DNA of 64,000 nt from a virus (taxonomy: Duplodnaviria; Heunggongvirae; Uroviricota; Caudoviricetes). The translations under genes were made by a program, and so were the position numbers. Below are positions 4,178-57,065 of the stretch, piece by piece (the first letter of the stretch is position 1; each line of letters begins with the position of its first letter). Below the pieces are notes generated by a model. That model did no database searches. It worked only from the letters and a program-made list of their open reading frames with translations, and was not told where the DNA came from. The stretch lies in the IMG/VR virus record IMGVR_UViG_3300033141_002732; one strand, written 5' to 3'.

Positions 4178-5056
4178 TTAACAAATTCTATTAGCTAAAT
4201 TTCCAGTGTTACATTCATCTTTATGTCCGTACTTGTAATGACATTCTTTACAAACAGAAATTCCAAAGTCTGGATCTAATGAGAAAAATGGTTCTAATTT
4301 TTGTGGACGAGTATGATGAACATGTTCTGCTTTTTCTCCACAATAAACACACTTATAATCATCTCGTTTTAGAACAATTTCTCTAAATGTTTGATATTCT
4401 TCTTGATTATATTGAAAACCACTCCCTTTATAAGTTCCCTGTTTTATTTCTACTTCTTTTATTAATTGTGATACTTTTTTACCATAAAGAGGACAAATAT
4501 TTTTACATTCTTTTGAACAATAGAAATTCGATTCACCAAATCCTTTTGGTTTTTCAATAGCTCTTATTCTAGCACTTATTTGATCATTAGTTGGAGTAAA
4601 CCAACCACCTTGTTCTTTCGAATTAAGACAATTATGATTTTTACAATGTACTTGTATTTCTTTTTCTCCAGGTTTATCTGGATTATATCTCATTTCTTCT
4701 ATTTTAGAAAAAAATGGATATTTTTCTCGAATCATTTCAATTGTAAATTTATTTGGTCCCTGTCTTCCTTTACAACTCTTAACTAATTTTTTGGAATACT
4801 TTTGAATTCTTATATCGTTTTCTTTATTTAAACCCTTATTCCATGGTTTCTTACCAAACATTGGATTTGATATTCCAATATTCTTATTTCTTAATCTTTT
4901 AATTGTTTCTTTCGAATGTTTTCTATTTACAGAAGATATTCTAAATTTTTCTCGATTAACTGGACAACTTTGCCAATTCTTTTCACAACAATATTTTTTA
5001 ATATGTTTAAGAAAATATTTTCCTTCTCTTCCACAACCATAATAACATAATTGCAT
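4178..5056 (-). CDS. HNH homing endonuclease with NUMOD3-like repeats
   Basis: C-terminal 'CVYCGEKAEHVHHTRPQ...CKECHYKYGHKDEC' HNH/zinc motif, repeated 'NxGxxxxGKKxWNKG' NUMOD-like segments. Starts 2 nt after the RNR stop. Confidence 0.7.
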   Translation of the reverse strand: MQLCYYGCGREGKYFLKHIKKYCCEKNWQSCPVNREKFRISSVNRKHSKETIKRLRNKNIGISNPMFGKKPWNKGLNKENDIRIQKYSKKLVKSCKGRQGPNKFTIEMIREKYPFFSKIEEMRYNPDKPGEKEIQVHCKNHNCLNSKEQGGWFTPTNDQISARIRAIEKPKGFGESNFYCSKECKNICPLYGKKVSQLIKEVEIKQGTYKGSGFQYNQEEYQTFREIVLKRDDYKCVYCGEKAEHVHHTRPQKLEPFFSLDPDFGISVCKECHYKYGHKDECNTGNLANRIC

Positions 5057-5058
5057 AT

Positions 5059-6795
5059 TTATATCTCACAAGAACCATTAGCACATTTATAATCATCTTC
5101 TTGTCTTTTGCCAAAAACTTCAGAACTATTTGTAGTAAGCTCAAAAGAAACTTCTTCTGAAGTAAGTCTATTTAATATCTGATTATCTCTACTTCCATCT
5201 ACATAAACAGTAACACCTTTTAAATCTTTTATATATTCTAATAAAAGATTATCTAACTCTTGTACAGTTGTATCTTTAGGAAGGTTAATCGTCTTCGATA
5301 CAGCGCCATCAACATATTTTTGAACTATAGATTGAACTTCAAAATGATCTTGCGGTTTAATATCAAAAGAATCTACAAACCATTCTGGAATTTCTTGTCC
5401 ATTTTCAATACATTCTCTATATAAATCATGAATATAAACTCTAGAACTAACTTCATCATCTCTTCTATATGCTTTAGAAAATAAAGGCTCAATTCCACTT
5501 GTAACATCTGCTAATAAAGAGATAGTTCCAGTTGGAGCAATAGCCATACCTGTAACACATCTAACTCCTTTTTTCTTAATATCCATTCTTAATGGAGCTG
5601 GAAGTTTTCTTATAAAAGAAGCTTTTAAATATTGAATTGAATCAAATTTAGGAAAAGCACCTTTTTCTACAGATAATTCAACTAGAGATTCATAAACATT
5701 ATCTCTAATAAATTTCATTAATTTCTCAATTTCAATAATTGATCTTTCAGACCCATATTGAACTTGTTTTGCAAATAAATATTCAGCTAAACCCATAACA
5801 CCAATTCCAATTCTTCTTGAAGTATGAGCTTTTATATCAATTTCTTTTAAAACATATTTATTTACATCTATAACATTATCTAGAAATCTTACTGCAAGTT
5901 TAATTGTTTGACTTAATTTTCTCCAGTTAGTATTTACATTACCCGTAATAAAATTGGGTAAAACAAGAGACCCCAAATCACATACATCATGTGGTGAAAG
6001 TATCGCTTCTCCACATGGATTGGTAGAAACAACTGGATCATAATAATAAGAATTATTTTTTAATAAATTTGTAAAATTTAACAAACCAGGTTCAGCACAT
6101 AATACCATATTTTTAAGAATTTTATTCCATATATCTCTTGCTTTTACTTTTTCATAACTTCTTTGTTTAAATTTAAATTCCCAATCAGAATCCATTTCAA
6201 CACATTCTAAAAATTTATTAGTTATACCAGCTGAAATATTATAGCAATTCAATTTTCCATGAACTAATTTTGAATCTATAAAATTAAGAATTTCTGGATG
6301 AGTTATATCAACACAAGCTAAAGCTGCAGCTCTCCTACTTCCACCACTTTCAATTGTTTCTGCCACAAAATTAGATGCTTCTAAAAAACTAACGAGTCCA
6401 GAAGATGTTCCTCCTTTTCCAAGTATCTCATCACCTTTTGGTCTAAGAGATGAAAAATTTACTCCAACTCCTCCTCCTTCAGACCATAAAATCAAAGCGT
6501 CTTTTATAAATTGTCCTATCTCTTCAATTGAATCTCCAATAGGTAAAACATAACAATTAAATAAAGAACCTCTTGGTCTTCCAGAATTTCTAATAATTCT
6601 GCCACCCGGAAGAAAATCCATATTGTAAATCATCTCATGAAATTTCTTTGTATACTCTGATCTTTTACCAGATTCTGCTTGAGCAACAATATCTGAAACT
6701 CTATATGTAGCAGATTCCCAATTTTCACCATCCAAAAAATATCTTTTTCTTGCTACTTCAAAAGCATTACCTGATAACATAACTTTTTTTGTCAT
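5059..6795 (-). CDS. ribonucleotide reductase catalytic subunit (likely class II, cobalamin-dependent NrdJ-like)
   Basis: Active-site 'TNPCGEA' plus radical-Cys region. 578 aa with no NrdB partner visible, so class II is favoured. Confidence 0.7.
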   Translation of the reverse strand: MTKKVMLSGNAFEVARKRYFLDGENWESATYRVSDIVAQAESGKRSEYTKKFHEMIYNMDFLPGGRIIRNSGRPRGSLFNCYVLPIGDSIEEIGQFIKDALILWSEGGGVGVNFSSLRPKGDEILGKGGTSSGLVSFLEASNFVAETIESGGSRRAAALACVDITHPEILNFIDSKLVHGKLNCYNISAGITNKFLECVEMDSDWEFKFKQRSYEKVKARDIWNKILKNMVLCAEPGLLNFTNLLKNNSYYYDPVVSTNPCGEAILSPHDVCDLGSLVLPNFITGNVNTNWRKLSQTIKLAVRFLDNVIDVNKYVLKEIDIKAHTSRRIGIGVMGLAEYLFAKQVQYGSERSIIEIEKLMKFIRDNVYESLVELSVEKGAFPKFDSIQYLKASFIRKLPAPLRMDIKKKGVRCVTGMAIAPTGTISLLADVTSGIEPLFSKAYRRDDEVSSRVYIHDLYRECIENGQEIPEWFVDSFDIKPQDHFEVQSIVQKYVDGAVSKTINLPKDTTVQELDNLLLEYIKDLKGVTVYVDGSRDNQILNRLTSEEVSFELTTNSSEVFGKRQEDDYKCANGSCEI

Positions 6796-6811: not shown

Positions 6812-7666
6812 TTAATAATCTGTAGTAATTGTTAAATGAAATGGATTAGAACATTCTTTTCTTCTAGACCATAACCACATATCAATATTTGCAATTGACA
6901 TTTTTGTATTTTCTTGTATTTTTTTACAAACTAATATAGTTGCTGATCTAATTTCAGCTTCCATTAATGAACCTTTTTCTATTAGCTCAAAATTTCTTAT
7001 TTTATTTTCTAACCCATAGGAATATGAAATACACCCATAATTTTTAAGAACACGAGGAAGTTGATAATCTGCAGGAACAAATACATTATTTAAATAATTA
7101 TGAAAACAACCAAATTTTCTATTCATTGTGAGAAAAAACAGAGAAGCTCGTTTTAAGAATATGTCTGAAGCATATCCCGGGAAAAATCTAATTAGTTCTT
7201 GTAATGGAGGTTCATATCCATTTTGTAGATGACGTAAAAATATACTAGAAAAGTCAAACCATAATTCATTAACTTCTTTTAAATGTTTTATTCTATCTTC
7301 TAAAAGTGGAAATCTATAAATAATTAATTGATCAATAAAATGATCTAAAAATTCTAAATCACCACCTAATTTAAGATTTTCATAAAATGTTTTATCCAAT
7401 AATTCATACATTTTCATTGCTGAAGAATTTCCAGGTCTAAAATATGGAGAAGCATACCAATAACAATAGTTTATAGAATTAGCAACAAGTTCAAAAGTTA
7501 TCTCATCAATAGTAGGTTCTAAAACTTTAAAAGAATTATTATTCTCAATATTCTGTAATATAATATTAGATAATATTTCAACATTTTCATAATGAATATT
7601 AACATATTTTGGATTTTTCATAAAATAATTTACTGCATCAAAAACACCTTTCCATATATCATCCAT
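6812..7666 (-). CDS. hypothetical protein
   Basis: 284-aa ORF, no confident motif. Confidence 0.4.
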   Translation of the reverse strand: MDDIWKGVFDAVNYFMKNPKYVNIHYENVEILSNIILQNIENNNSFKVLEPTIDEITFELVANSINYCYWYASPYFRPGNSSAMKMYELLDKTFYENLKLGGDLEFLDHFIDQLIIYRFPLLEDRIKHLKEVNELWFDFSSIFLRHLQNGYEPPLQELIRFFPGYASDIFLKRASLFFLTMNRKFGCFHNYLNNVFVPADYQLPRVLKNYGCISYSYGLENKIRNFELIEKGSLMEAEIRSATILVCKKIQENTKMSIANIDMWLWSRRKECSNPFHLTITTDY

Positions 7667-17892: not shown

Positions 17893-18397
17893 TATTTCTC
17901 CAATATATTCTACATTTTCTTTTTGAAAATTTTTGAGCTTCTTTAATTTTTTCCTTACCACCAAAATATATATCAATTCTTTTCGTATATCTTTCATTCA
18001 TTTTATCTAAAACAACTTTTGTACCTATATTTTCAATATAAACTTTAGTATTCCTATTTAAACCTATTTTTAATAAATCTCTTGAAACTGCAATAATATT
18101 TGGTCGAATTTTATCATTCCAAGCACAAATATTTGGAGTATCATCAGTTTGAGATTCTACTGAATTATATGCTGTAACATCAACAATTACAGAATTTAAT
18201 AAAGATTTATCATATAAAACTAATTCCCGAATATTAAGAATATTTGGAAGATTTAATTCTTCTTGATATAACATCATATCAATTTGCAATGCTTTCATTT
18301 CAATTTGTAATATTTTTGGAATATTTCCATCAGAAGATATATTTGGTATGAATAACAAAATAACAAATAATGATAATAATAAAATAACTTTTTTCAT
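17876..18397 (-). CDS. secreted 3D-domain protein (MltA/YuiC-like)
   Basis: N-terminal signal peptide 'MKKVILLLSLFVILLFIP', then 'DVTAYNSVESQTDDTP...IIAVSRDLL...RIDIYF' matching the 3D (Asp-Asp-Asp) domain pattern. Confidence 0.55.
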   Translation of the reverse strand: MKKVILLLSLFVILLFIPNISSDGNIPKILQIEMKALQIDMMLYQEELNLPNILNIRELVLYDKSLLNSVIVDVTAYNSVESQTDDTPNICAWNDKIRPNIIAVSRDLLKIGLNRNTKVYIENIGTKVVLDKMNERYTKRIDIYFGGKEKIKEAQKFSKRKCRIYWRNNGRIK

Positions 18398-18536
18398 TAT
18401 TAAATCTCCATTTTATTTTTTGTTCAGTATTAATGAAACAAATACTATTTATCAAATATTTATATATATAACAAAAAAGATTATAACCAAATAAAAAAAG
18501 AACAAAATTATGAATTAGATTAGAAAAGGAGAATAT
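18398..18536. promoter_or_regulatory. divergent intergenic region at strand-switch (putative bidirectional promoters)
   Basis: All genes to the left are minus-strand and all to the right plus-strand. AT-rich 139-bp spacer with SD 'aaaggag' for the + gene. Confidence 0.35.
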
Positions 18537-25418: not shown

Positions 25419-26480
25419 ATGTCAGAAAATAATGAAAATACCGAAAATATACAAAAGAATATAGATAATAATATTCTTTGTATTGGTATTGATATTGGTA
25501 CTATGAATATTTGTGTTGCAAGAAGTGATTCTGATAAAATTAGAATTACAAGAAATGTTTTTCTTCCATTAAAAAGTGAAGAAATTTCTATTTCAGAACT
25601 TACAGAAATATCTTATGTAGAAAATGATAATGGAGATCTTTTTATAATTGGAAATGATGCATTTAAATTTTCTAATATATTTGGTCAAGAAGTTTCAAGA
25701 CCAATGAAATCTGGATTAATTAGTTCAACTGAAATTGATGCTGTAGATATATTAACTCTAATTTTAAAGAGTTTAATTGGTAATGTAAAAGATCAAGATA
25801 CTTATTGTAGTTATAGTATTCCAGCAGAAGCTATTGATTCAAATCGTTCAGTAATATATCATGAAAAAGTATTTGGAAGAATTTTATCTGCTTTGGGAGT
25901 TAATTATTCTTCTGTAAATGAAGCAATGGCAATTATTTATTCTGAATGTGCAAAAGAAAGATTTAGTGGTGTTAGTATTAGTTTTGGAGCTGGTATGGCA
26001 AATTGTGCTGTATCATTTAAGGGAATTGAAGCATTAAAATTTTCCACAGCTAGAAGTGGAGATTGGGTAGATAAAAATGTTGCAGAATCATTAAATATTG
26101 TAACAAATCGTGTTACAAGTATAAAAGAAAAACATTTAGATTTAGAAACAGGATTTATAAATATTTCAAATAAAAAAATAAGAAGAGTAGTAGAAGCATT
26201 AGAATATTATTATAATGCTTTACTTGAATATACTGTTAAAAAGATAATTTATGAATTTGAAGATAAAGTTAACTTGGAAATTGATGAAAATATTCCTTTA
26301 GTTTTATCTGGAGGAACTGCATTACCTAATGGTTTTTTAAATTTATTTAAAAAAGTTTTATCTAATTATGAGTTACCTTTTGGTATATCAGAAATAAGAT
26401 TAGCTAAAAATCCGCTTACATCTGTAGTTAATGGATTATTAGTAAAAACATTATCTGATGTGAAGAAGATAAATAAATAA
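25419..26480 (+). CDS. actin-like ATPase (ParM/StbA/Alp superfamily)
   Basis: Phosphate-1-like 'LCIGIDIGTMNICVA', later 'SFGAGMANCAVS' (phosphate-2-like) and 'LVLSGGTALP' (adenosine motif-like); 353 aa. Confidence 0.5.
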   Translation: MSENNENTENIQKNIDNNILCIGIDIGTMNICVARSDSDKIRITRNVFLPLKSEEISISELTEISYVENDNGDLFIIGNDAFKFSNIFGQEVSRPMKSGLISSTEIDAVDILTLILKSLIGNVKDQDTYCSYSIPAEAIDSNRSVIYHEKVFGRILSALGVNYSSVNEAMAIIYSECAKERFSGVSISFGAGMANCAVSFKGIEALKFSTARSGDWVDKNVAESLNIVTNRVTSIKEKHLDLETGFINISNKKIRRVVEALEYYYNALLEYTVKKIIYEFEDKVNLEIDENIPLVLSGGTALPNGFLNLFKKVLSNYELPFGISEIRLAKNPLTSVVNGLLVKTLSDVKKINK

Positions 26481-27342: not shown

Positions 27343-28620
27343 ATGGATATAAAGCAAGAACTTAGTGAATTACAGGAAATGATGAAAATAAAAGGTGTTA
27401 ATTTTAAACCTATATCAGATTCTGATTTCAGAAAGTTTAAAATAAATCCATCTGAAATTAAAAAAGTATCTACAATAGAAGAATTAAGAAATGGAACTCC
27501 AAATATGATTGTTACTGAATCTGTGGCTAATACAACATTTATTCAAAATAATTTTAAGAAACAGAATTTAATAAAGAAGAAAAAATATGTTATGTCTTTG
27601 GGTGTTTATAGTCAACTACATTATGAAATAAATAGAGATGTAAGAATTTTAAAACCTACAAAACCGTTATTTAAGAATATATATAAACCATATTTGGGAC
27701 AAAATCTAAATGGGAAAACGTTATTAGTATGGAGAACTGGAGGAATTGGAGATCTTTTATTTATTAATCCAAACTTAAGATTTTTAAAAGAGAAATATCC
27801 AGATTGTACAATAAAATTTGCTTGTGGACCACAATATCAATCAATGGTTGAAACTTGGGATTTTGTTGATAAAGTCTTAGATTTACCATTTAATATTCAA
27901 CAAGTTATAATGGCTGATTATCATGCTATGTTTGAAGGAGTTATAGAAAGATGTGAAGCAGCTGAAAAAGAAAATGCTTATCGTTTATTTACAAAATGGC
28001 TTAATATTAATTTACCTGATGAATTATTAATACCAAAACAAGAACCAAGAGAAGATAAAGTAAAAGAATGTTATGAAATATTAGATAGAGAATGGGGTTT
28101 AAAAGGAAATGATTTTATATTATTACAACTTAGAGCAAGTTCTCCAATAAGAACTCCAAGACCTGAATTTTCTCAAAATTTAATAAATTTATTAACAGAT
28201 AGAGGACATAATGTTGTTATTACTGATGGTCCACATAAATATCAAGCTATTGAAGATTTAGTTATGAATTTTGTAAAAGATAAAAATAAAGTATTTAATT
28301 TTGCAAATTTTTCAAAAACTTTAGATTATACAATTGCTTTAACTTCATTAGCAAAAGTTGTTGTATCTACAGATTCTGCTCTTATACATGTTGCTCAATC
28401 TTTAGGAATTCCAGCATTTGGAATTTATGGTCCTTTTCTTGGAAGAATTCGTCTTGAAACGTATAAAAATGTTGATTGGATAGATGCACCAAAAAATTGC
28501 TGCCCATGTTTTCTTCATGGACATATGCCTTGCAAACATTCAAAAGATAATTATCCAACCTGTTTTGATACAATAGATTTAAGAGATGTAGTTAATCGAG
28601 TGGAGAAATTAATGATATGA
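27343..28620 (+). CDS. GT9-family (heptosyltransferase-like) glycosyltransferase
   Basis: 'LLVWRTGGIGDLLFINPNLRFLKEKYP' and C-terminal 'STDSALIHVAQSLGIPAFGIYGPF' match GT9 motifs. Confidence 0.6.
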   Translation: MDIKQELSELQEMMKIKGVNFKPISDSDFRKFKINPSEIKKVSTIEELRNGTPNMIVTESVANTTFIQNNFKKQNLIKKKKYVMSLGVYSQLHYEINRDVRILKPTKPLFKNIYKPYLGQNLNGKTLLVWRTGGIGDLLFINPNLRFLKEKYPDCTIKFACGPQYQSMVETWDFVDKVLDLPFNIQQVIMADYHAMFEGVIERCEAAEKENAYRLFTKWLNINLPDELLIPKQEPREDKVKECYEILDREWGLKGNDFILLQLRASSPIRTPRPEFSQNLINLLTDRGHNVVITDGPHKYQAIEDLVMNFVKDKNKVFNFANFSKTLDYTIALTSLAKVVVSTDSALIHVAQSLGIPAFGIYGPFLGRIRLETYKNVDWIDAPKNCCPCFLHGHMPCKHSKDNYPTCFDTIDLRDVVNRVEKLMI

Positions 28621-40607: not shown

Positions 40608-41606
40608 ATGTTAAATATTACAGTTCTCGGAGGATTAGGTTATATTGGAAGTCATTTAAGTAGAATGCTAGTTGATTCTGGACATAATGTAACAATTTTA
40701 GATATTGCTTGGTTTGGATTTGATCATATAAATGATGTTTTAGAGAAAGAGAATTGTGAATGGATTAATGGAGATATCAGACATTCAGAAGATCTAAGTT
40801 GTGCTATAAAGAATAGTGATGTTGTTGTTCATCTCGCAGGAATAGTTGGAGACCCTGCTTGTTCACTTGATAATGATGAAACATGGTTACAAAATATTGA
40901 ATCTTCTAATTTAATAGTAGATGTTTGTAATCATTATGATATTCAAAAATTTATATTTGCATCTAGTTGTAGTGTATATGGTGCAGCACCATCTGATATT
41001 CTTCTTAATGAAGGATCTTATTTAAATCCTGTTTCCTTATATGCAGAAAGTAAAATAAAATCTGAAAAAATCTTTCTTAGTGAATTTAATAATATATGCA
41101 CAATTTTACGATTATCTACTGTTTTTGGATATTCTGAAAGAATGAGATTTGACCTTGTTGCTAACCTTTTTACAATAAAAGCAATTAAAGAGAAAAAGAT
41201 TCAGGTGTTTGGTGGATCTCAATATAGACCTTTTATTCATTGTAAAGATGTTGCAAGAGCAATTAAAAAAGTTATTGATTTTCCAGATAAAATTAAAATT
41301 GATAAAGAAGTATTTAATATTTCAGTTGAAAATATCTCAATACGAGAACTTGGTATACTAGTTTCTGAATTAACTGATTCTGATATAGAACTTGTTGAGA
41401 CAAAAGAAGATGATAGAAATTATAAAGTATCTGCAGATAAAATAAAATGGTTACTGGGTTATAAACCATATTTTGGTTTAGCTTCTGGTATTTTACATAT
41501 GATAGAATCTATAAAAGGGAAAAGATTTGATGATTGGGTAACAAATAAACAAAAATATGAGAATGTAAATAATCTTCAAGAAAGGAGAAAAACAAACATA
41601 AAATGA
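40608..41606 (+). CDS. NAD-dependent epimerase/dehydratase (SDR family)
   Basis: 'ITVLGGLGYIGSHL' Rossmann motif, 'YAESK' catalytic YxxxK. Confidence 0.65.
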   Translation: MLNITVLGGLGYIGSHLSRMLVDSGHNVTILDIAWFGFDHINDVLEKENCEWINGDIRHSEDLSCAIKNSDVVVHLAGIVGDPACSLDNDETWLQNIESSNLIVDVCNHYDIQKFIFASSCSVYGAAPSDILLNEGSYLNPVSLYAESKIKSEKIFLSEFNNICTILRLSTVFGYSERMRFDLVANLFTIKAIKEKKIQVFGGSQYRPFIHCKDVARAIKKVIDFPDKIKIDKEVFNISVENISIRELGILVSELTDSDIELVETKEDDRNYKVSADKIKWLLGYKPYFGLASGILHMIESIKGKRFDDWVTNKQKYENVNNLQERRKTNIK

Positions 41607-42112
41607 AAAAGGAGTTTTTTATGAAGTATATAGTTTATTTAGTAGGTCAGATTACAGCAAATCCAGAAACATATGCTTGGAGAGAAAGAGTATCATTATA
41701 TTTTAATACTAACAGAAATAAAGTTGATTCTGATATTGAAGTTATTAATCCATGTAATAGTTTGTTTAATAAGAATTTAATTGATAATTGTAGAAATAAT
41801 TCTGTTGAGTATTCAAAATGGGTATTAAAACGAGATCCGAGTTTATTAGTTCCAAAAGATAGAAGATTTGTTAAAAGAGCAAATGTATTATTTGTTAATA
41901 TGAATATGTATTCTCCTGAGAAACCAATGTTAGGATCTTTTTTTGAATTAGCTTGGGCTTATGATTCTCCAGAAAAGATGGTGATTGGAATATTTAATGG
42001 AGATCATGAAAAAGATTTTCAGTGTAGACATCCATTTGTTAGTCAAATTATACATTCTTGGGTTAAAGATGAAATTGAAGCCTGTAAATTATTAGAATAT
42101 TATATTGATTAA
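41603..42112 (+). CDS. nucleoside 2-deoxyribosyltransferase-like protein
   Basis: 'YLVGQI...' N-terminus and 'PMLGSFFELAWAY' resembling the NDT 'GTAFEiGyA' active-site Glu region. Confidence 0.45.
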   Translation: MKKEFFMKYIVYLVGQITANPETYAWRERVSLYFNTNRNKVDSDIEVINPCNSLFNKNLIDNCRNNSVEYSKWVLKRDPSLLVPKDRRFVKRANVLFVNMNMYSPEKPMLGSFFELAWAYDSPEKMVIGIFNGDHEKDFQCRHPFVSQIIHSWVKDEIEACKLLEYYID

Positions 42113-53262: not shown

Positions 53263-53812
53263 TTTAATTCGTGGGCTTATATATGGAAAGCAGTTATGTT
53301 TTATTGGAACAAACGTAAAATTGGGAAAGAATGTTAGAATAAGTTATTTGGTTTCAATAGAAGATAATTGTCAAATTGGTAATAATACTTTTATTGGATA
53401 TTGTTGTATATTAAGACCTAATGTTAAAATTGGAAATGATTGTTCTTTTGGTCATTTAACTGTTATTGAGAAAAATGTTATAATTAAAAATCGAGTTTCT
53501 TTTCATGCTCAATGTCATATAACAGAAGGAACATATGTTGAAGATAATGTTTTTGTTGCGCCAATGTTTATGGGAACTAATACAAAAATAATAGATCATG
53601 GAAGAAATTTAAATCCTCCTATTGAAGGTCCTATTATTAGAAGAGCCGTAAGAATAGCCTCTAATGTAAAATTACTTCCTGGAGTTGAAATAGGAGAGAA
53701 TGCTTTAATTGGAATCGGTTCTGTAGTTACTAAAGATGTTCCTCCAAGAGAAATATGGTTTGGAAATCCAGCTAGAAAATTTGGAAATGTGAAGGAAGAT
53801 GAAATTTTATGA
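53231..53812 (+). CDS. hexapeptide-repeat (LbH) acyltransferase
   Basis: Repeating [LIV]-G-x-x-x-x hexads: 'NVKLGKNVRISY..IEDNCQIGNNTFIGY..LRPNVKIGNDCSFGH'. Confidence 0.55.
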   Translation: MLKYYWKTLISLIRGLIYGKQLCFIGTNVKLGKNVRISYLVSIEDNCQIGNNTFIGYCCILRPNVKIGNDCSFGHLTVIEKNVIIKNRVSFHAQCHITEGTYVEDNVFVAPMFMGTNTKIIDHGRNLNPPIEGPIIRRAVRIASNVKLLPGVEIGENALIGIGSVVTKDVPPREIWFGNPARKFGNVKEDEIL

Positions 53813-54138
53813 GAAAAAATGAAAACTCATGTAAAGGATGTGAATTTTTAGGTAGTGATTCATGTAGAGATATATTTTGGTATGTTTGTAGTCATGATTC
53901 CATACTAGAAGAATATCCAGAAGCATTAATATTAAATCAAGATTTAGAAACTCCAGATTGGTGTCCGTTAAGAATTTCTAATGATGATATTGAAATTGAA
54001 AAAGTGATTAATTACATTAGAAAATTTAAAAATCAAATTAAAAGAGTTTATGGATCTTATAATCATGGAAGTGTTTTCTCACCTGTTTATACTCAAGAAA
54101 ATTCCCCACCTGATCAGATAATTATTGTATTTAAATAA
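53809..54138 (+). CDS. small Cys-containing hypothetical protein
   Basis: 109 aa. Confidence 0.35.
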   Translation: MRKNENSCKGCEFLGSDSCRDIFWYVCSHDSILEEYPEALILNQDLETPDWCPLRISNDDIEIEKVINYIRKFKNQIKRVYGSYNHGSVFSPVYTQENSPPDQIIIVFK

Positions 54139-54818: not shown

Positions 54819-55004
54819 ATGTGGAATCTTAAATTATTACTGAATTATTGTGAAGATAATCATGTTTATTTAAATGGAAAATGGGTTCCATCTCGTCCTT
54901 TAAATGGACAAAAAAATATATATCCTTTTTGGAAACGAATTAAAGATTCTTGGAAAGTATTTAAATGTAAAGCAGAAGCATTTGAGTGGCCAGAAGGACA
55001 ATAA
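54819..55004 (+). CDS. small hypothetical protein
   Basis: 61 aa. Confidence 0.3.
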   Translation: MWNLKLLLNYCEDNHVYLNGKWVPSRPLNGQKNIYPFWKRIKDSWKVFKCKAEAFEWPEGQ

Positions 55005-55360
55005 TGAAAGAATTACTATTTTCAGTAACTAAGAAAGATTTAGACATCCAATTTTTTTCTGGAAAAGGTGCTGGTGGTCAACATAGGAATAAACATCAGA
55101 ATTGTGTTCGTATGGTTCATAAAGATTCTGGAGTTATTGTTACTGGTCAAAATAGTAGAAGTAGAAAAGCTAATATAAAAGAAGCTTTTAATAATTTAGT
55201 TAAACATCCTAAATTTAAAATATGGTTAAATAGAACAGCACAAGAAATTATAAATAATGAAAATATAAACCAAACAGTTGATTCAATGATGGACCTTAAA
55301 AATCTAAAAATAGAAGTTAAAGATAAAGATGGAAATTGGGTAGAAAAAAATAATATTTAA
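55004..55360 (+). CDS. ArfB-like peptidyl-tRNA hydrolase / RF-1 GGQ-domain protein
   Basis: 'SGKGAGGQHRNKHQNCVRMVHKDSGVIV' matches the class-I release-factor GGQ domain 'sGpGGQhVNkt.SaVrl.H'. The ATG at 55004 overlaps the upstream stop (TAATG). Confidence 0.6.
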   Translation: MKELLFSVTKKDLDIQFFSGKGAGGQHRNKHQNCVRMVHKDSGVIVTGQNSRSRKANIKEAFNNLVKHPKFKIWLNRTAQEIINNENINQTVDSMMDLKNLKIEVKDKDGNWVEKNNI

Positions 55361-55411
55361 AAAGAAAATAATACTAATTATTTAGAACATAATAAAAAAG
55401 GAGAATTGTAA

Positions 55412-56116
55412 ATGAACTATTTAGTTTTTGAAACAATGAAAAAAGTTTTGGAATATGGTGCTTTAGTAATACGAGATGTTGATAATGGTGAAGAACCTTT
55501 TTTATATGCATCTGGTAATTGGGGACCAGGATATGTATCAATTAAAGGTTTAGTTTCTAAACCTCGTCTTTTTGAAAGTATGACATTACAGCTTGCTTCA
55601 AAAATATCATATATTACAGAAATAGATATTGTAGCTGGAAATGTTACTGGAGGAGTTCCACCTTCTGTTTTATTATCCAAACAATTATCTATATTTTATG
55701 GAAAAGATGTACCTCTTCTTTATGTTAGAGATGCTAGAAAAAAAGGTGGTATGAAAGAACTTGTAACTGGACACCGTTCTGAATATAAACGTAAACATGT
55801 TTTAGTTACTGAAGAGTTAGTAAACTTTGCACAAACTACTTGTAATAGTGTGAATATTTTAAGAGAAATGAATTATTATGTTGATTGTTCTTGTTGTATT
55901 TTATTTTATAATAATCCAGTTGCTAATGAAATGTTATATAATAATAAAATAACTATAATATATTTATTTACTTTATCAGAATTACTTTATTGTGCAGAAT
56001 CATGTAATTATTTTTCAAAAAATTTAATTGATAAATATAGAAACTTTTTAGAAGATCCACTAGATTGGCAAAAGAAGAAGGGATTAGAACCAGTGAAAGG
56101 TGGGGGAACTAAATAA
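55412..56116 (+). CDS. orotate phosphoribosyltransferase-like protein
   Basis: 'FLYASGNWGPGYVSIKG' (PyrE hood region 'F.L.SG..SPyY.D') and PRPP-motif-like 'HVLVTEELVNFAQTT'. Confidence 0.5.
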   Translation: MNYLVFETMKKVLEYGALVIRDVDNGEEPFLYASGNWGPGYVSIKGLVSKPRLFESMTLQLASKISYITEIDIVAGNVTGGVPPSVLLSKQLSIFYGKDVPLLYVRDARKKGGMKELVTGHRSEYKRKHVLVTEELVNFAQTTCNSVNILREMNYYVDCSCCILFYNNPVANEMLYNNKITIIYLFTLSELLYCAESCNYFSKNLIDKYRNFLEDPLDWQKKKGLEPVKGGGTK

Positions 56117-56796
56117 TGAAATATCCATTTTTGTTTGTTGCTTTAGATAATCTTTTAGATGATGATCCTGAAATATTATATAAATTATCCGAAGTAGATG
56201 GAAATTTTGGTTTTAAAATAAATTTAGATTATCTTTTATTTATGGGTTTAGATATAATTCCATATTTAAAAGCTTTTAATAGACCATTATTTTTTGATTT
56301 AAAAATGTTTAATGGTAAAAGAACAATGAAAAGATTGGTATATAGATTAGTTGATTCACAAATTGATTTTTTCAATTTTCATATGTTAGCTGATAATCAA
56401 ATTGAATTTATAAATGAAATGGATTTAAAAAATACAAAAGTTTTGGGAGTTACTGTTCTTAGTCATATGAATGAAAGTTATTGTAAATTTATGTTTGGAA
56501 AATCATTAATTGATGTAATTGGTATATTAGAAACTAAAGCTTTGAGTTTAGGATGTCATGGGGTTATTTTACCACCATTCGCTCTTGGAAAAATCAGACA
56601 TGGGAATATTATAAAAGTATCTCCTGGAATTAGGCCAGAATGGTATCAAGATTCAATTCATGTTAATCCTTCTACACCAAAATATGCTGTACAAAATGGT
56701 GCAGATATTTTAGTATGTGGATCTCCAATTATGAAATCCAATGATCCAATTTTAGCTTTGAAAAGAGTGTTAGAAGAAATGGAATGTTCAAAATGA
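56116..56796 (+). CDS. OMP decarboxylase-family protein (PyrF/KGPDC/HPS fold)
   Basis: 'LFVALDNL...FGFKINLDYL...FFDLKMFNGKRTM' parallels 'alD...vKvG...f.DlKlhDIpnTv' of OMPDC. Confidence 0.45.
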   Translation: MKYPFLFVALDNLLDDDPEILYKLSEVDGNFGFKINLDYLLFMGLDIIPYLKAFNRPLFFDLKMFNGKRTMKRLVYRLVDSQIDFFNFHMLADNQIEFINEMDLKNTKVLGVTVLSHMNESYCKFMFGKSLIDVIGILETKALSLGCHGVILPPFALGKIRHGNIIKVSPGIRPEWYQDSIHVNPSTPKYAVQNGADILVCGSPIMKSNDPILALKRVLEEMECSK

Positions 56797-57065
56797 AAAC
56801 TCATTGGTTATTTGGAATAGATCCTAATAAGGAAGTTAAATTTAAAAAAGAAATTGATGAAGAAACTGATTGTAATAAATGTATACATAAAAAGGTTTGT
56901 ATGAGAGATATGCCAAAGAGATGTATAAATTTTGAAATGTCAAATTCAAATGCATTTAGTTGTGGAACTTGTGTACATAATTTTACAAGATTCAGTAGAA
57001 ATTCAATTCCCTGTTTTTATTGTAAAGATTTTTTGGAGGAGTTTAATGGAAAAGAAAAAAATTAA
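56784..57065 (+). CDS. small Cys-rich hypothetical protein
   Basis: 'CNKCIHKKVC...CGTCVHNF...CFYC'. Confidence 0.35.
   Translation: MFKMKTHWLFGIDPNKEVKFKKEIDEETDCNKCIHKKVCMRDMPKRCINFEMSNSNAFSCGTCVHNFTRFSRNSIPCFYCKDFLEEFNGKEKN

What the first reader, a model, noticed from the sequence alone, without database searches (positions are those of the whole stretch)
55412..56796. OPRT-like and OMP-decarboxylase-like gene pair inside the island, with an NDT-like protein at 41603-42112
A PyrE-like phosphoribosyltransferase and an OMPDC-fold protein are adjacent, and a nucleoside 2-deoxyribosyltransferase-like protein lies 13 kb upstream. These are unexpected in a lytic phage glycan cluster. They may be ordinary pyrimidine-salvage auxiliary genes. 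Alternatively they could make a non-canonical nucleotide (base exchange or ribosylation of an unusual base), which would favour a DNA or nucleotide hypermodification role for part of the island.
Basis: inference. Interest (0 to 1): 0.6.

Follow-up and report, generated by a model that had tools for sequence, protein, structure and literature searches.

The report
Non-canonical OPRT/OMP-decarboxylase-like gene pair
A T4-like phage carries a tightly coupled pair of enzymes that resemble the last two steps of uridine-nucleotide synthesis, but the pair belongs to an uncharacterised variant family, typical of ultra-small CPR bacteria and DPANN archaea, in which the decarboxylase's hallmark active-site residues are replaced as a block, so it may make a nucleotide other than UMP.

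Summary

The pair is not canonical PyrE/PyrF. Both proteins fall far below the NCBIfam equivalog cutoffs (95 vs 245 bits; 93 vs 193 bits). They belong to two co-evolving subfamilies found mainly in Patescibacteria and DPANN archaea. There the genes are adjacent in 27 of 28 loci, in housekeeping contexts. In giant-virus MAGs and other metagenomic proteins they are fused, in both domain orders.

The OMPDC-like subfamily keeps D11, K34, D61 and K63. It swaps the canonical DxKxxD-I-x-N-T / Ser / Gln / Gly-Arg for DxKxxN-G-x-R-T / His / His-or-Gln / Gly-Ser. This switch is sharp in a ranked search of 1.84 billion proteins.

My best reading is a self-contained module: a carboxylated base plus PRPP gives a nucleotide, which the second enzyme then decarboxylates. 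The phage acquired it horizontally. The substrate is probably not orotate/OMP (about 0.5). The rival is a divergent but genuine orotate-to-UMP route (about 0.35).

No comparative evidence links the pair to the glycan island or to the NDT-like gene.

The parts
55399..55403 (+). Shine-Dalgarno sequence (AGGAG), 8 nt upstream of the PRT-like start codon
   Evidence: Read directly from the sequence.
55412..56116 (+). OPRT-type phosphoribosyltransferase-like gene (234 aa) of the CPR/DPANN subfamily. Signature motifs: FLYASGNWGPGY..IK45, AGNVTGG..P84, Y104-x-R106..R109-K110-K-G-G-x-K115-E, E134-E135-LVNFAQTT, Y166-x-N168-P, DPLxWQ, and a C-terminal GGTK.
   Evidence: ORF. NCBIfam NF001729 95 bits against a cutoff of 245. 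PDB 4ohc E=1.2e-17. 316 homologs, 45-56% identical, named ones from Patescibacteria. Conservation per position. Deviates from its family at only one column that is at least 95% conserved, W86V.
56114..56118 (+). TAATG stop/start overlap that couples translation of the two genes; preceded by GGTGGGGGA
   Evidence: Read directly from the sequence. The same overlapped or adjacent arrangement occurs in 27 of 28 cellular loci.
56116..56796 (+). OMPDC-fold gene (226 aa) with a remodelled active site. D11, K34, D61 and K63 are retained. N66 replaces the third Asp of DxKxxD, G67-x-R69-T70 replaces I-P-x-T, H117 replaces the base-contact Ser, H182 replaces the gripper Gln, and S203 replaces the gripper Arg. 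The window copy also has I181 where 117 of 120 family members have Arg.
41603..42112 (+). NDT/DNPH1-superfamily-fold protein (169 aa).
   Evidence: Pfam PF15891 E=0.009, below cutoff. 64 homologs in phage-like contexts. Invariant Y12, G15, W26, R27, D86, N101, E115. AF2 pLDDT 87. Foldseek hits to 7o62, DNPH1, BcmB and MilB and to many viral proteins named 'nucleoside 2-deoxyribosyltransferase'. Co-occurs with the pair only on this phage's contig.

Best explanation
The two genes are one functional unit. It is a horizontally acquired copy of a distinct and so far uncharacterised two-enzyme module whose home is the reduced genomes of Patescibacteria (CPR) and DPANN archaea. The module also turns up sporadically in phages and, as a fusion protein, in giant-virus MAGs.

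Step 1 (inferred from homology). The OPRT-type phosphoribosyltransferase condenses PRPP with a carboxylated N-heterocyclic base to give a nucleoside 5'-monophosphate. It keeps the PRPP acidic pair (E134-E135), the 5-phosphate loop and the flexible catalytic loop with its invariant Lys (K110).

Step 2 (inferred). The OMPDC-fold enzyme processes that nucleotide, most likely by decarboxylation. It keeps the ribose-binding Asp, Lys and Thr and the catalytic D-x-K.

The residues that in every canonical OMPDC complete the charge network, read the uracil ring and grip the phosphate have been replaced as a block. The partner PRTase has diverged in parallel. For these reasons the intermediate is probably not OMP, and the base is probably not, or not only, orotate. 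Losing one Asp and gaining an invariant Arg shifts the pocket by about two positive charges. That would suit a more anionic base. Quinolinate and 7-carboxy-7-deazaguanine are candidates I can name but cannot test.

In this phage the module is an auxiliary nucleotide-supply gene pair that happens to sit inside the glycan island. It does not depend on the island or on the NDT-like gene.

What is shown: the identity of the ORFs, the fold, subfamily membership, the block switch of residues, synteny, fusions and taxonomic spread. What is inferred: catalytic competence, decarboxylation, and the non-orotate substrate.
For: Both proteins fail the PyrE/PyrF equivalog cutoffs, and so do their cellular relatives.

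A profile search of 1.84 billion representatives finds about 91 subfamily clusters at E<=1e-30, followed directly by canonical OMPDCs. At columns 66/67/69/117 the joint pattern is NGRH in 57 of 71 complete subfamily representatives and DINS in canonical ones. Column 66 is Asp in only 2 of 79 subfamily representatives against 51 of 57 canonical ones. Column 203 is Arg in 6 of 80 against 53 of 56.

The 120 closest homologs conserve N66 (118/120), H117 (119/120), H182 (120/120) and S203 (110/120).

The phage copies are ordinary family members, with only 1-2 deviations at columns that are at least 95% conserved.

The PRT-like gene lies directly upstream of the OMPDC-like gene in 27 of 28 cellular loci, usually overlapping it, as in the window. 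Fusions exist in both orders: PRT-OMPDC in L013, L015, P0335, P0346, P0359, P0362, P0363, P0368 and P0387, and OMPDC-PRT in P0351 and P0408. Both halves always come from the same two subfamilies.

Taxonomy: eight or more Patescibacteria lineages plus Woese-, Pace- and Aenigmatarchaeota.

The fold is OMPDC rather than HPS or KGPDC.

The PRPP motif and catalytic-loop residues are invariant in the PRT-like family.

From established enzymology, recalled and not retrieved here: in yeast OMPDC, Ala substitution of each of K59, D91, K93 and D96 cripples the enzyme (Miller et al. 2001), and Q215, Y217 and R235 form the phosphodianion gripper (work of Richard and Gerlt).
Against: No biochemical data exist for any member, and I found no paper on the family (all returned nothing).

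The closest relatives by sequence and structure are still genuine OPRT and OMPDC.

The closest canonical OPRT subfamily (4ohc / NF001729) already shares some of the 'unusual' PRT-like features, namely SGW.SP and LF.YN, so the PRTase alone does not argue against orotate.

About half of the wider subfamily keeps the gripper Gln and a few members keep the Arg. Only N66, G67, R69 and H117 are therefore universal to it.

A few canonical OMPDCs also have His at column 117.

A 24%-GC phage has a high demand for dTTP, which a plain orotate-to-UMP route would serve, and phage pyrE auxiliary genes are known (PMC9983427).

I could not test whether genomes that carry the pair lack pyrB/C/D or carry a second, canonical pyrE/F.
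Confidence: 0.5

Rival explanations
1. This is an ordinary pyrimidine auxiliary metabolic gene pair. The module is a divergent but functionally orthodox OPRT + OMPDC that converts orotate to UMP, in CPR/DPANN cells and in this phage. In the phage it boosts the pyrimidine supply (ultimately dTTP) for an AT-rich genome. The active-site changes are compensated, for example with R69 or R181 taking over the roles of the lost residues.
Against: The third Asp of the universally conserved DxKxxD network is lost in 77 of 79 subfamily representatives. It is replaced together with Ile to Gly, Asn to Arg, Ser to His and Arg to Ser/Gly/Thr. The switch is sharp, with no gradual series. The partner PRTase co-diverged, which would be unnecessary if the intermediate were still OMP. 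All members fail the curated equivalog thresholds. From general knowledge rather than any test here: the hosts are reduced symbionts usually described as lacking de novo nucleotide synthesis, so a source of orotate is unclear.
Confidence: 0.35
2. The pair is part of a DNA or nucleotide hypermodification pathway and acts together with the glycan island and/or the NDT-like protein. The pair would make a non-standard nucleotide, for example from 7-carboxy-7-deazaguanine or a substituted orotate. That nucleotide would be incorporated into phage DNA, and part of the island would decorate it.
For: Phage contig L045 has the pair between a TET-associated glycosyltransferase, a radical-SAM/SPASM enzyme and DUF2284 on one side and a 427-aa thymidylate-synthase-like protein on the other. 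Phage contig L014 has GTP cyclohydrolase I, MT-A70, radical-SAM/SPASM and a PolA fused to a UDG-superfamily domain near the pair. This phage has Q_salvage in the window, and QueC, a dCMP deaminase and a dGTP-diphosphohydrolase-like domain 4-7 kb past the window end. The NDT fold includes nucleotide N-glycosidases.
Against: The great majority of family members are in CPR/DPANN cells, with no modification genes nearby and no conserved third partner. The other viral loci share no glycan genes with the window. The NDT-like gene never co-occurs with the pair elsewhere. No ThyA-like, TET, TAGT or DpdA gene was seen in the window. Replication and nucleotide modules of large phages commonly carry such genes, so proximity is weak evidence.
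Confidence: 0.08
3. The function is glycan-related. Either the PRT-like enzyme transfers phosphoribosyl from PRPP onto a sugar or glycan acceptor, as in PRPP-dependent ribofuranose incorporation, or the OMPDC-fold enzyme is an HPS/KGPDC-type sugar-phosphate enzyme that serves the island.
For: The pair is embedded among glycosyltransferases and sugar-nucleotide-modifying genes. The OMPDC suprafamily includes sugar-phosphate enzymes, and weak NCBIfam hits to HPS occur (E=0.012).
Confidence: 0.04
4. The genes are decaying or non-functional remnants of captured pyrE/pyrF.
For: The window copy has I181 where 117 of 120 relatives have Arg, and V86 where 97% have Trp.
Against: Both ORFs are intact with good ribosome-binding sites and are coupled. 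The same protein sequences recur on four contigs from two samples. There are only 1-2 deviations at columns that are at least 95% conserved, within the normal range for the families. The unusual residues are the family's conserved signature rather than random damage.
Confidence: 0.03

Closest known systems
Orotidine 5'-phosphate decarboxylase (PyrF, EC 4.1.1.23; Pfam PF00215; bacterial type 1, e.g. PDB 3ru6, 1dbt, 3tr2)
   Different: The third Asp of DxKxxD is Asn. The following I-P-x-T is G-x-R-T. The base-contact Ser is His, the gripper Gln is His (or Gln in part of the family), and the gripper Arg is Ser/Gly/Thr. Scores are about half the equivalog cutoffs. Sequence identity to solved OMPDCs is about 24%.
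Orotate phosphoribosyltransferase (PyrE, EC 2.4.2.10), especially the NF001729 / PDB 4ohc (Burkholderia) subfamily with a C-terminal helical extension
   Same: Full-length homology (E=3.7e-27 and 1.2e-17). A type I PRT acidic pair plus phosphate loop. A flexible loop with conserved Arg and Lys. A shared SGW.SP-like N-terminal motif and an LF.YN motif. The same C-terminal extension.
   Different: 95 bits against a cutoff of 245. Below the Pfam PF00156 gathering score (21.5 against 26.3). Its own invariant motifs are SGN(W)GPGY..IK, AGNVTGG, RKKGGQKE, EELVNFAQTT, DPLxWQ and a C-terminal GGT(K).
UMP synthase (eukaryotic OPRT-OMPDC fusion) and the bacterial bifunctional PyrF-PyrE (NF004034)
   Same: The two activities are fused in one polypeptide, in both domain orders, just as in this family's giant-virus and metagenomic members.
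   Different: Those fusions use canonical domains with DxKxxD, for example P0442. This family's fusions carry the N/G/R/H signature.
Cyanophage pyrE auxiliary metabolic genes
   Same: A phage-encoded OPRT-type gene interpreted as boosting nucleotide supply (PMC9983427).
   Different: The cyanophage genes are host-like canonical pyrE without a pyrF partner. None of 50,697 deposited phage records encodes this subfamily.
Nucleoside 2-deoxyribosyltransferase / DNPH1 / CMP N-glycosidase superfamily (for the 41603-42112 protein)
   Same: The same fold (Foldseek E=1.8e-5 to 8e-4). An N-terminal Y-L-x-G motif and a G-S-x-F-E-L motif with an invariant Glu, at the position where I recall the NDT nucleophile lies (the residue role is recalled, not tested).
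   Different: 10-16% identity. Below the Pfam cutoff. An extra helical insertion at residues 54-92. Substrate unknown.

Membership tests
OMP decarboxylase (PyrF) | OMPDC-type TIM-barrel fold / Pfam PF00215 domain | tested here: met
OMP decarboxylase (PyrF) | Score above the curated equivalog cutoff | tested here: not met
   NF001273 93 against 193; TIGR01740 67.1 against 92.3; NF010386 49.1 against 208. The cellular relative P0079 also fails (117 against 193).
OMP decarboxylase (PyrF) | Complete Lys / Asp-x-Lys-x-x-Asp charge network | tested here: not met
   K34 and D61-x-K63 are present, but the final Asp is N66. N in 118 of 120 close homologs. Asp in only 2 of 79 subfamily representatives against 51 of 57 canonical ones.
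OMP decarboxylase (PyrF) | Phosphodianion gripper Gln and Gly-Arg | tested here: not met
   H182 and G202-S203 in the window protein. In the subfamily, column 203 is Arg in 6 of 80 and column 182 is H in 42 and Q in 39.
OMP decarboxylase (PyrF) | Pyrimidine-contact Ser after strand 5 (TxLTS) | tested here: not met
   H117 (TVLSH). H in 119 of 120 close homologs. Canonical representatives have S in 42 of 58.
OMP decarboxylase (PyrF) | Decarboxylation of OMP to UMP | not testable with these tools
   This needs an enzyme assay or genetic complementation.
Orotate phosphoribosyltransferase (PyrE) | Type I PRT core with a PRPP-binding acidic pair and phosphate loop | tested here: met
   V-L-V-T-E134-E135-L-V-N-F-A-Q-T-T aligns with VDDVITAGT of E. 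coli PyrE and VEDLTTDSRS of 4ohc. Pfam PF00156 is, however, only 21.5 bits against a gathering score of 26.3.
Orotate phosphoribosyltransferase (PyrE) | Flexible catalytic loop with conserved Arg and Lys (E. coli R99, K103) | tested here: met
   R106 and K110 are invariant in the family and align with the E. coli loop RKEAKDHG.
Orotate phosphoribosyltransferase (PyrE) | Score above the curated equivalog cutoff | tested here: not met
   NF001729 95.2 against 245; TIGR00336 59.1 against 106.8. P0204 scores 85 against 245.
Orotate phosphoribosyltransferase (PyrE) | Orotate-binding residues and orotate specificity | tested here: inconclusive
   E. coli K26 and R156 align to W37 and N168. The closest genuine OPRT subfamily (4ohc) has similar substitutions, so these positions do not discriminate.
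CPR/DPANN-type PRT-like + OMPDC-like module (unnamed; defined here) | PRT-like gene directly upstream of, or fused to, an OMPDC-like gene, with both from the two special subfamilies | tested here: met
   The window has a TAATG overlap. 27 of 28 cellular loci are adjacent. Fusions occur in both orders. Identity to family members is 43-55%.
CPR/DPANN-type PRT-like + OMPDC-like module (unnamed; defined here) | N66/G67/R69/H117 signature in the OMPDC-like partner | tested here: met
   All four are present in the window protein. The joint pattern NGRH occurs in 57 of 71 complete subfamily representatives.
HPS / KGPDC branch of the OMPDC suprafamily | Closest structural and sequence similarity, and acidic metal ligands in place of the OMPDC Lys | tested here: not met
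Nucleoside 2-deoxyribosyltransferase / DNPH1 superfamily (41603-42112) | Flavodoxin-like NDT fold | tested here: met
   AF2 pLDDT 87. Foldseek top hits 7o62, 8of6, 9i57, 4jen and 4ohr at probability 1.00. Viral proteins named NDT are also hit.
Nucleoside 2-deoxyribosyltransferase / DNPH1 superfamily (41603-42112) | Pfam family score above the gathering cutoff | tested here: not met
   PF15891 16.8 bits against 30. A few homologs do carry PF15891 or PF05014.
Nucleoside 2-deoxyribosyltransferase / DNPH1 superfamily (41603-42112) | Catalytic Glu nucleophile and N-terminal Tyr | tested here: inconclusive
   E115 (GSFFELAW) and Y12 (YLVGQ) are invariant in the family. Their equivalence to the NDT catalytic residues rests on motif resemblance recalled from memory, not on a residue-level superposition.

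The most novel reading that the evidence does not exclude
The PRT-like/OMPDC-like module is a previously unrecognised two-step route to a nucleotide other than UMP, starting from a more anionic carboxylated heterocycle. Two candidates are quinolinate, giving nicotinate mononucleotide without NadC, and 7-carboxy-7-deazaguanine, giving a 7-deazapurine nucleotide. On this reading the module is a core salvage trait of CPR bacteria and DPANN archaea. Phages and giant viruses have captured it repeatedly to edit their nucleotide or cofactor pools. In this phage it might feed a non-canonical base into DNA alongside QueC, Q_salvage and the dGTP-diphosphohydrolase-like gene.
Probability: 0.4. Interest if true: 0.85.

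Novelty: new variant of a known kind. Interest (0 to 1): 0.63.

Why it matters
OMP decarboxylase is a textbook model of extreme enzymatic proficiency. Its Lys/Asp-x-Lys-x-x-Asp network and its phosphate gripper are treated as invariant. Here is a large, clearly selected clade that has dropped the third Asp and mostly the gripper Arg and gained an Arg and a His, always with a co-diverged OPRT-like partner.

There are two possibilities. The clade may be a natural experiment showing that OMP can be decarboxylated with a different charge network. Or it may be a new nucleotide-forming reaction that genome annotation currently mislabels as pyrE/pyrF or as 'hypothetical'.

This affects metabolic reconstructions of CPR/DPANN 'dark matter' organisms, where a pyrE/pyrF call would suggest pyrimidine capacity. 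It also affects the reading of viral auxiliary genes.

For this phage specifically, the pair should not be used as evidence that the glycan island modifies DNA.

Tried and rejected
- Close relatives among deposited phages: megablast of 54-58 kb found nothing. tblastn of both proteins against 50,697 phage records found only canonical pyrF/pyrE at 23-27% identity, mostly on short unannotated records.

- A conserved third gene next to the pair: clustering ORFs from 31 loci gave mostly antisense shadow ORFs. The only real recurrent neighbour is a MESH1/HDDC3-like HD hydrolase, present in 6 loci. That is too sporadic to define a pathway.

- A second, canonical PyrE or PyrF in the window or in any fetched locus: none found. 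Each locus covers only about 2% of a genome, so this says little.

- Literature: eight searches on CPR/DPANN/giant-virus orotate, pyrE/pyrF and OMPDC mutants returned nothing usable, apart from the cyanophage pyrE precedent. One further search was malformed.

- Decay hypothesis: rejected by leave-one-out conservation counts.

- Shared glycan genes between the window and other pair-bearing viral contigs: none found. There was only a weak GT9 hit (E=1e-4), a clamp loader and an exonuclease.

- PHROGs on ten unannotated window ORFs, to look for hydroxymethylase, TET or TAGT relatives: no hits.

- The upstream flank of the contig could not be fetched, because the ORF as I delimited it is not on record.

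- Model coordinates are not exposed to scripts. I therefore could not measure where R69, N66, H117 and H182 sit relative to the substrate pocket.
Full report
**Observation**

The three ORFs exist exactly as described: 55412-56116 (+, 234 aa), 56116-56796 (+, 226 aa) and 41603-42112 (+, 169 aa).

The first has an AGGAG ribosome-binding site 8 nt upstream of its start. Its TAA stop overlaps the ATG of the second (TAATG), which is preceded by GGTGGGGGA. The two are therefore built to be co-translated.

Sequence context shows a T4-like phage genome of about 24% GC. It has a UvsX-like recombinase, a Dda-like helicase, a gp44-type clamp loader, a gp13-like virion protein and an RNR on the minus-strand arm. 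Most of the long plus-strand arm, from about 33 to 60 kb, is a sugar-modifying island. It contains five GT-D-like proteins, GT1, GT2, three epimerase/dehydratases, DegT, ATP-grasp, Asn-synthase-like, methyltransferase, LbH acetyltransferase and UDP-GlcNAc 2-epimerase-like genes; a GT9 gene lies upstream at 27343-28620. The pair lies inside that island, and the NDT-like gene lies 13.3 kb upstream of it. The same genes recur on four contigs of 64-152 kb from JGI metagenomes 3300033148 and 3300033153. No deposited phage is similar at the DNA level.

**What the proteins are**

The first protein is homologous to orotate phosphoribosyltransferase over its full length (NF001729 E=3.7e-27; PDB 4ohc E=1.2e-17).

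Neither reaches the curated equivalog thresholds: 95 against 245 bits and 93 against 193 bits.

Aligned to solved OMPDCs and to E. coli PyrF, the protein keeps Asp11, Lys34, Asp61-x-Lys63 and Thr70. Its motif, however, is DxKxxN (N66) followed by G-K-R-T instead of I-P-x-T. The base-contact Ser is His117, the gripper Gln is His182 and the gripper Arg is Ser203.

**The changes define a family**

A search of 5.8 billion proteins returned 246 relatives of the OMPDC-like protein and 316 of the PRT-like protein, at 43-56% identity. Those that carry names are almost all from Patescibacteria. In the 120 closest OMPDC-like relatives, N66 occurs in 118, H117 in 119, H182 in 120 and S203 in 110. The PRT-like family has its own invariant motifs.

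A profile search of 1.84 billion representative proteins found about 91 clusters at E<=1e-30. Directly below them in the ranking come ordinary OMPDCs. Along that ranked list the signature switches as a block:

| Columns | Subfamily representatives | Next-ranked canonical representatives |
|---|---|---|
| 66/67/69/117 (joint) | NGRH in 57 of 71 complete sequences | DINS is the commonest pattern |
| 66 | Asp in 2 of 79 | Asp in 51 of 57 |
| 203 | Arg in 6 of 80 | Arg in 53 of 56 |

Column 182 is His in about half of the subfamily and Gln in the rest. The universal core of the change is therefore N66, G67, R69 and H117 together with loss of the gripper Arg.

The phage copies are normal members. 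They deviate at only two (G154P, R181I) and one (W86V) of the columns that are at least 95% conserved in their families. R181I is worth noting, because Arg181 is present in 117 of 120 relatives.

**The two genes form a unit**

In two long Patescibacteria contigs the OMPDC-like gene is immediately preceded, with a 4-bp overlap, by a 249-253-aa gene with no Pfam hit. That gene's product is 47-51% identical to the window's PRT-like protein.

Across 28 cellular loci from one-genome-per-species collections the same order holds in 27. The exception, L027, carries a further-diverged OMPDC-like gene.

In two giant-virus MAG contigs the two are fused into one ORF of 451 and 501 aa. Among representative proteins there are at least seven PRT-OMPDC fusions and two OMPDC-PRT fusions, always built from these two subfamilies. 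Independent fusions in both orders are classic evidence for consecutive steps of one pathway.

Carriers span at least eight Patescibacteria lineages and three DPANN lineages. Their neighbourhoods are housekeeping genes such as SecA, PheST, GyrB, EF-P and ribosomal proteins, and there is no conserved third gene. The only recurrent neighbour is a MESH1/HDDC3-like HD hydrolase, in 6 loci.

**Relation to the glycan island and the NDT-like gene**

The other pair-bearing viral contigs share no glycan genes with the window.

The NDT-like protein is a genuine NDT/DNPH1-superfamily fold. Its 64 relatives sit in phage-like contigs next to PhoH, an amidase and homing endonucleases, not next to glycan genes or the pair. 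It co-occurs with the pair only on this phage's own contig. Similar folds are annotated in many phages and giant viruses.

The pair stands alone as a module.

**Mechanism**

What is shown: fold, subfamily membership, the block switch of residues, operon coupling, fusions and distribution.

What is inferred from the retained elements:
- The PRT-like enzyme keeps the PRPP acidic pair, the phosphate loop and the catalytic loop Lys. It should still join PRPP to a base.
- The OMPDC-like enzyme keeps the ribose-binding Asp, Lys and Thr and the catalytic Asp-x-Lys. It should still bind a ribonucleotide and probably still decarboxylates it.

The residues that complete the charge network and read the uracil ring and the phosphate are replaced. 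One Asp is lost and an invariant Arg is gained. The partner PRTase has co-diverged. I therefore judge it somewhat more likely than not that the intermediate is not OMP (about 0.5). The alternative is a divergent but orthodox orotate-to-UMP route (about 0.35).

The role of the third Asp and of the gripper residues comes from established OMPDC enzymology that I recall (alanine scanning of the yeast charge network; the phosphodianion-gripper work). I could not retrieve those papers with the tools.

Candidate alternative bases such as quinolinate or 7-carboxy-7-deazaguanine are speculation.

**Circumstantial points**

For a DNA-modification connection:
- Phage contig L045 has the pair between a TET-associated glycosyltransferase, a radical-SAM/SPASM enzyme and DUF2284 on one side, and a long thymidylate-synthase-like protein on the other.
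- Phage contig L014 has GTP cyclohydrolase I, MT-A70, radical-SAM/SPASM and a PolA fused to a UDG-like domain nearby.
- This phage encodes Q_salvage in the window. Just beyond its 3' end lie QueC, a dCMP deaminase and a dGTP-diphosphohydrolase-like domain.

Against it: the module's cellular contexts show nothing of the kind.

For the ordinary reading: phage pyrE is a known auxiliary gene (PMC9983427), and a 24%-GC genome needs a lot of dTTP.

**Comparison with what is known, and novelty**

The closest known systems are PyrE/PyrF and UMP synthase. The pair works like them in outline, but it fails several defining membership features of PyrF. I found no publication on this subfamily in the searchable library. 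Public annotations call its members 'OMP decarboxylase / HUMPS family protein', 'hypothetical protein' or, automatically, pyrE/pyrF. None of 50,697 deposited phage genomes has it.

I rate it a new variant of a known kind, with moderate-to-high interest. It is a selected, widespread OMPDC clade without the canonical tetrad, relevant both to enzymology and to how CPR/DPANN and viral nucleotide metabolism is annotated.

**Verdict**

The substrate remains to be determined experimentally.

Noticed in passing
window 6812-7666 (-); L046 14156-14716, 14980-15525, 16296-16664 (about 4-7 kb beyond the window's 3' end on contig Ga0366832_1000077): The phage encodes a Q_salvage (PF10343, queuosine-salvage/Qng1-like) protein next to its RNR. 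Just outside the window it encodes QueC (preQ0 synthase), a dCMP deaminase and a dGTP-diphosphohydrolase-like N-domain (PF18909). This suggests 7-deazaguanine-type DNA modification or dNTP-pool editing.
   Followed up: partly
L045 4586-5368, 5322-6389, 6382-7029, 9992-11544, 11850-13133: In phage contig IMGVR_UViG_3300009788_004654 the pair lies between a TET-associated glycosyltransferase (TAGT), a radical-SAM/SPASM enzyme and DUF2284 on one side, and a 427-aa thymidylate-synthase-like protein on the other. The OMPDC-like ORF there is short (181 aa) and sits 288 nt from the PRT-like gene.
   Followed up: partly
L014 1226-1798, 2829-3371, 3601-4521, 12861-15392: Phage contig IMGVR_UViG_3300012931_000032, which carries the pair, also has GTP cyclohydrolase I, an MT-A70 methyltransferase, a radical-SAM/SPASM enzyme and an 843-aa DNA polymerase A with an N-terminal UDG-superfamily domain.
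   Followed up: no
window 54986-55360 (+): A small (124 aa) RF-1-domain protein (PF00472 60 bits; phrog_3122 E=1.9e-23; weak ArfB/PrfH similarity) lies immediately upstream of the pair. It may be a peptidyl-tRNA hydrolase or ribosome-rescue-type factor encoded by the phage.
   Followed up: no
window about 33000-60000 (+): A very large sugar-modification island lies here, with a GT9 gene further upstream at 27343-28620. It holds five GT-D-like proteins, GT1, GT2, three NDP-sugar epimerase/dehydratases, a DegT aminotransferase, an MR_MLE enolase-superfamily protein, ATP-grasp, Asn-synthase-like, Amidohydro_2, LbH acetyltransferase, several methyltransferases and a UDP-GlcNAc 2-epimerase-like protein. 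The gene set would fit an amino-acid-decorated amino sugar. The target (virion, host surface or DNA) is unknown.
   Followed up: partly
window 25419-26480 (+): A 353-aa protein hits Pfam Volactin (PF25216), an actin-family model, in a phage genome.
   Followed up: no
L024 571-1143; L036 6636-7199; L030 6706-7242 (-); L031 1735-2226 (-); also L023, L032: A protein of about 160-190 aa, resembling the small HD hydrolases MESH1/HDDC3 (PDB 3nr1 E=0.0015; weak SpoT HD hits), lies directly next to the pair in 6 loci from both bacteria and archaea. It may be an accessory phosphohydrolase.
   Followed up: partly
P0147 (408 aa, Aenigmarchaeota); P0163 and P0207 (377-378 aa); L035 1426-2739 (437 aa): Some archaeal and metagenomic PRT-like proteins are tandem or partial internal duplications of the PRT-like domain.
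   Followed up: no
L027 7274-7963 and 8001-8702: This is the one cellular locus without an upstream PRT-like gene. Its OMPDC-like protein is further diverged (DLKMWHDERA, TVLSY). It is preceded by a protein with two H-I-T-L motifs, reminiscent of 2H phosphoesterases. That reading comes from the sequence only.
   Followed up: no
window 53809-54138 (+) and 56784-57065 (+): Two small Cys-rich ORFs (109 and 93 aa, with several CxxC-like pairs) sit near the pair: the 93-aa ORF directly follows it, and the 109-aa ORF opens the run of small unannotated ORFs upstream. Neither has a family hit.
   Followed up: no
window 4178-5056 (-), adjacent to RNR 5059-6795 (-): An HNH/NUMOD3-type homing-endonuclease-like gene lies directly next to the ribonucleotide reductase large subunit.
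   Followed up: no
window about 18000-18500: The sign of the GC skew flips from about -0.3 to about +0.2/+0.3, coinciding with the switch from minus-strand to plus-strand genes. This marks a divergent transcription or replication boundary.
   Followed up: no
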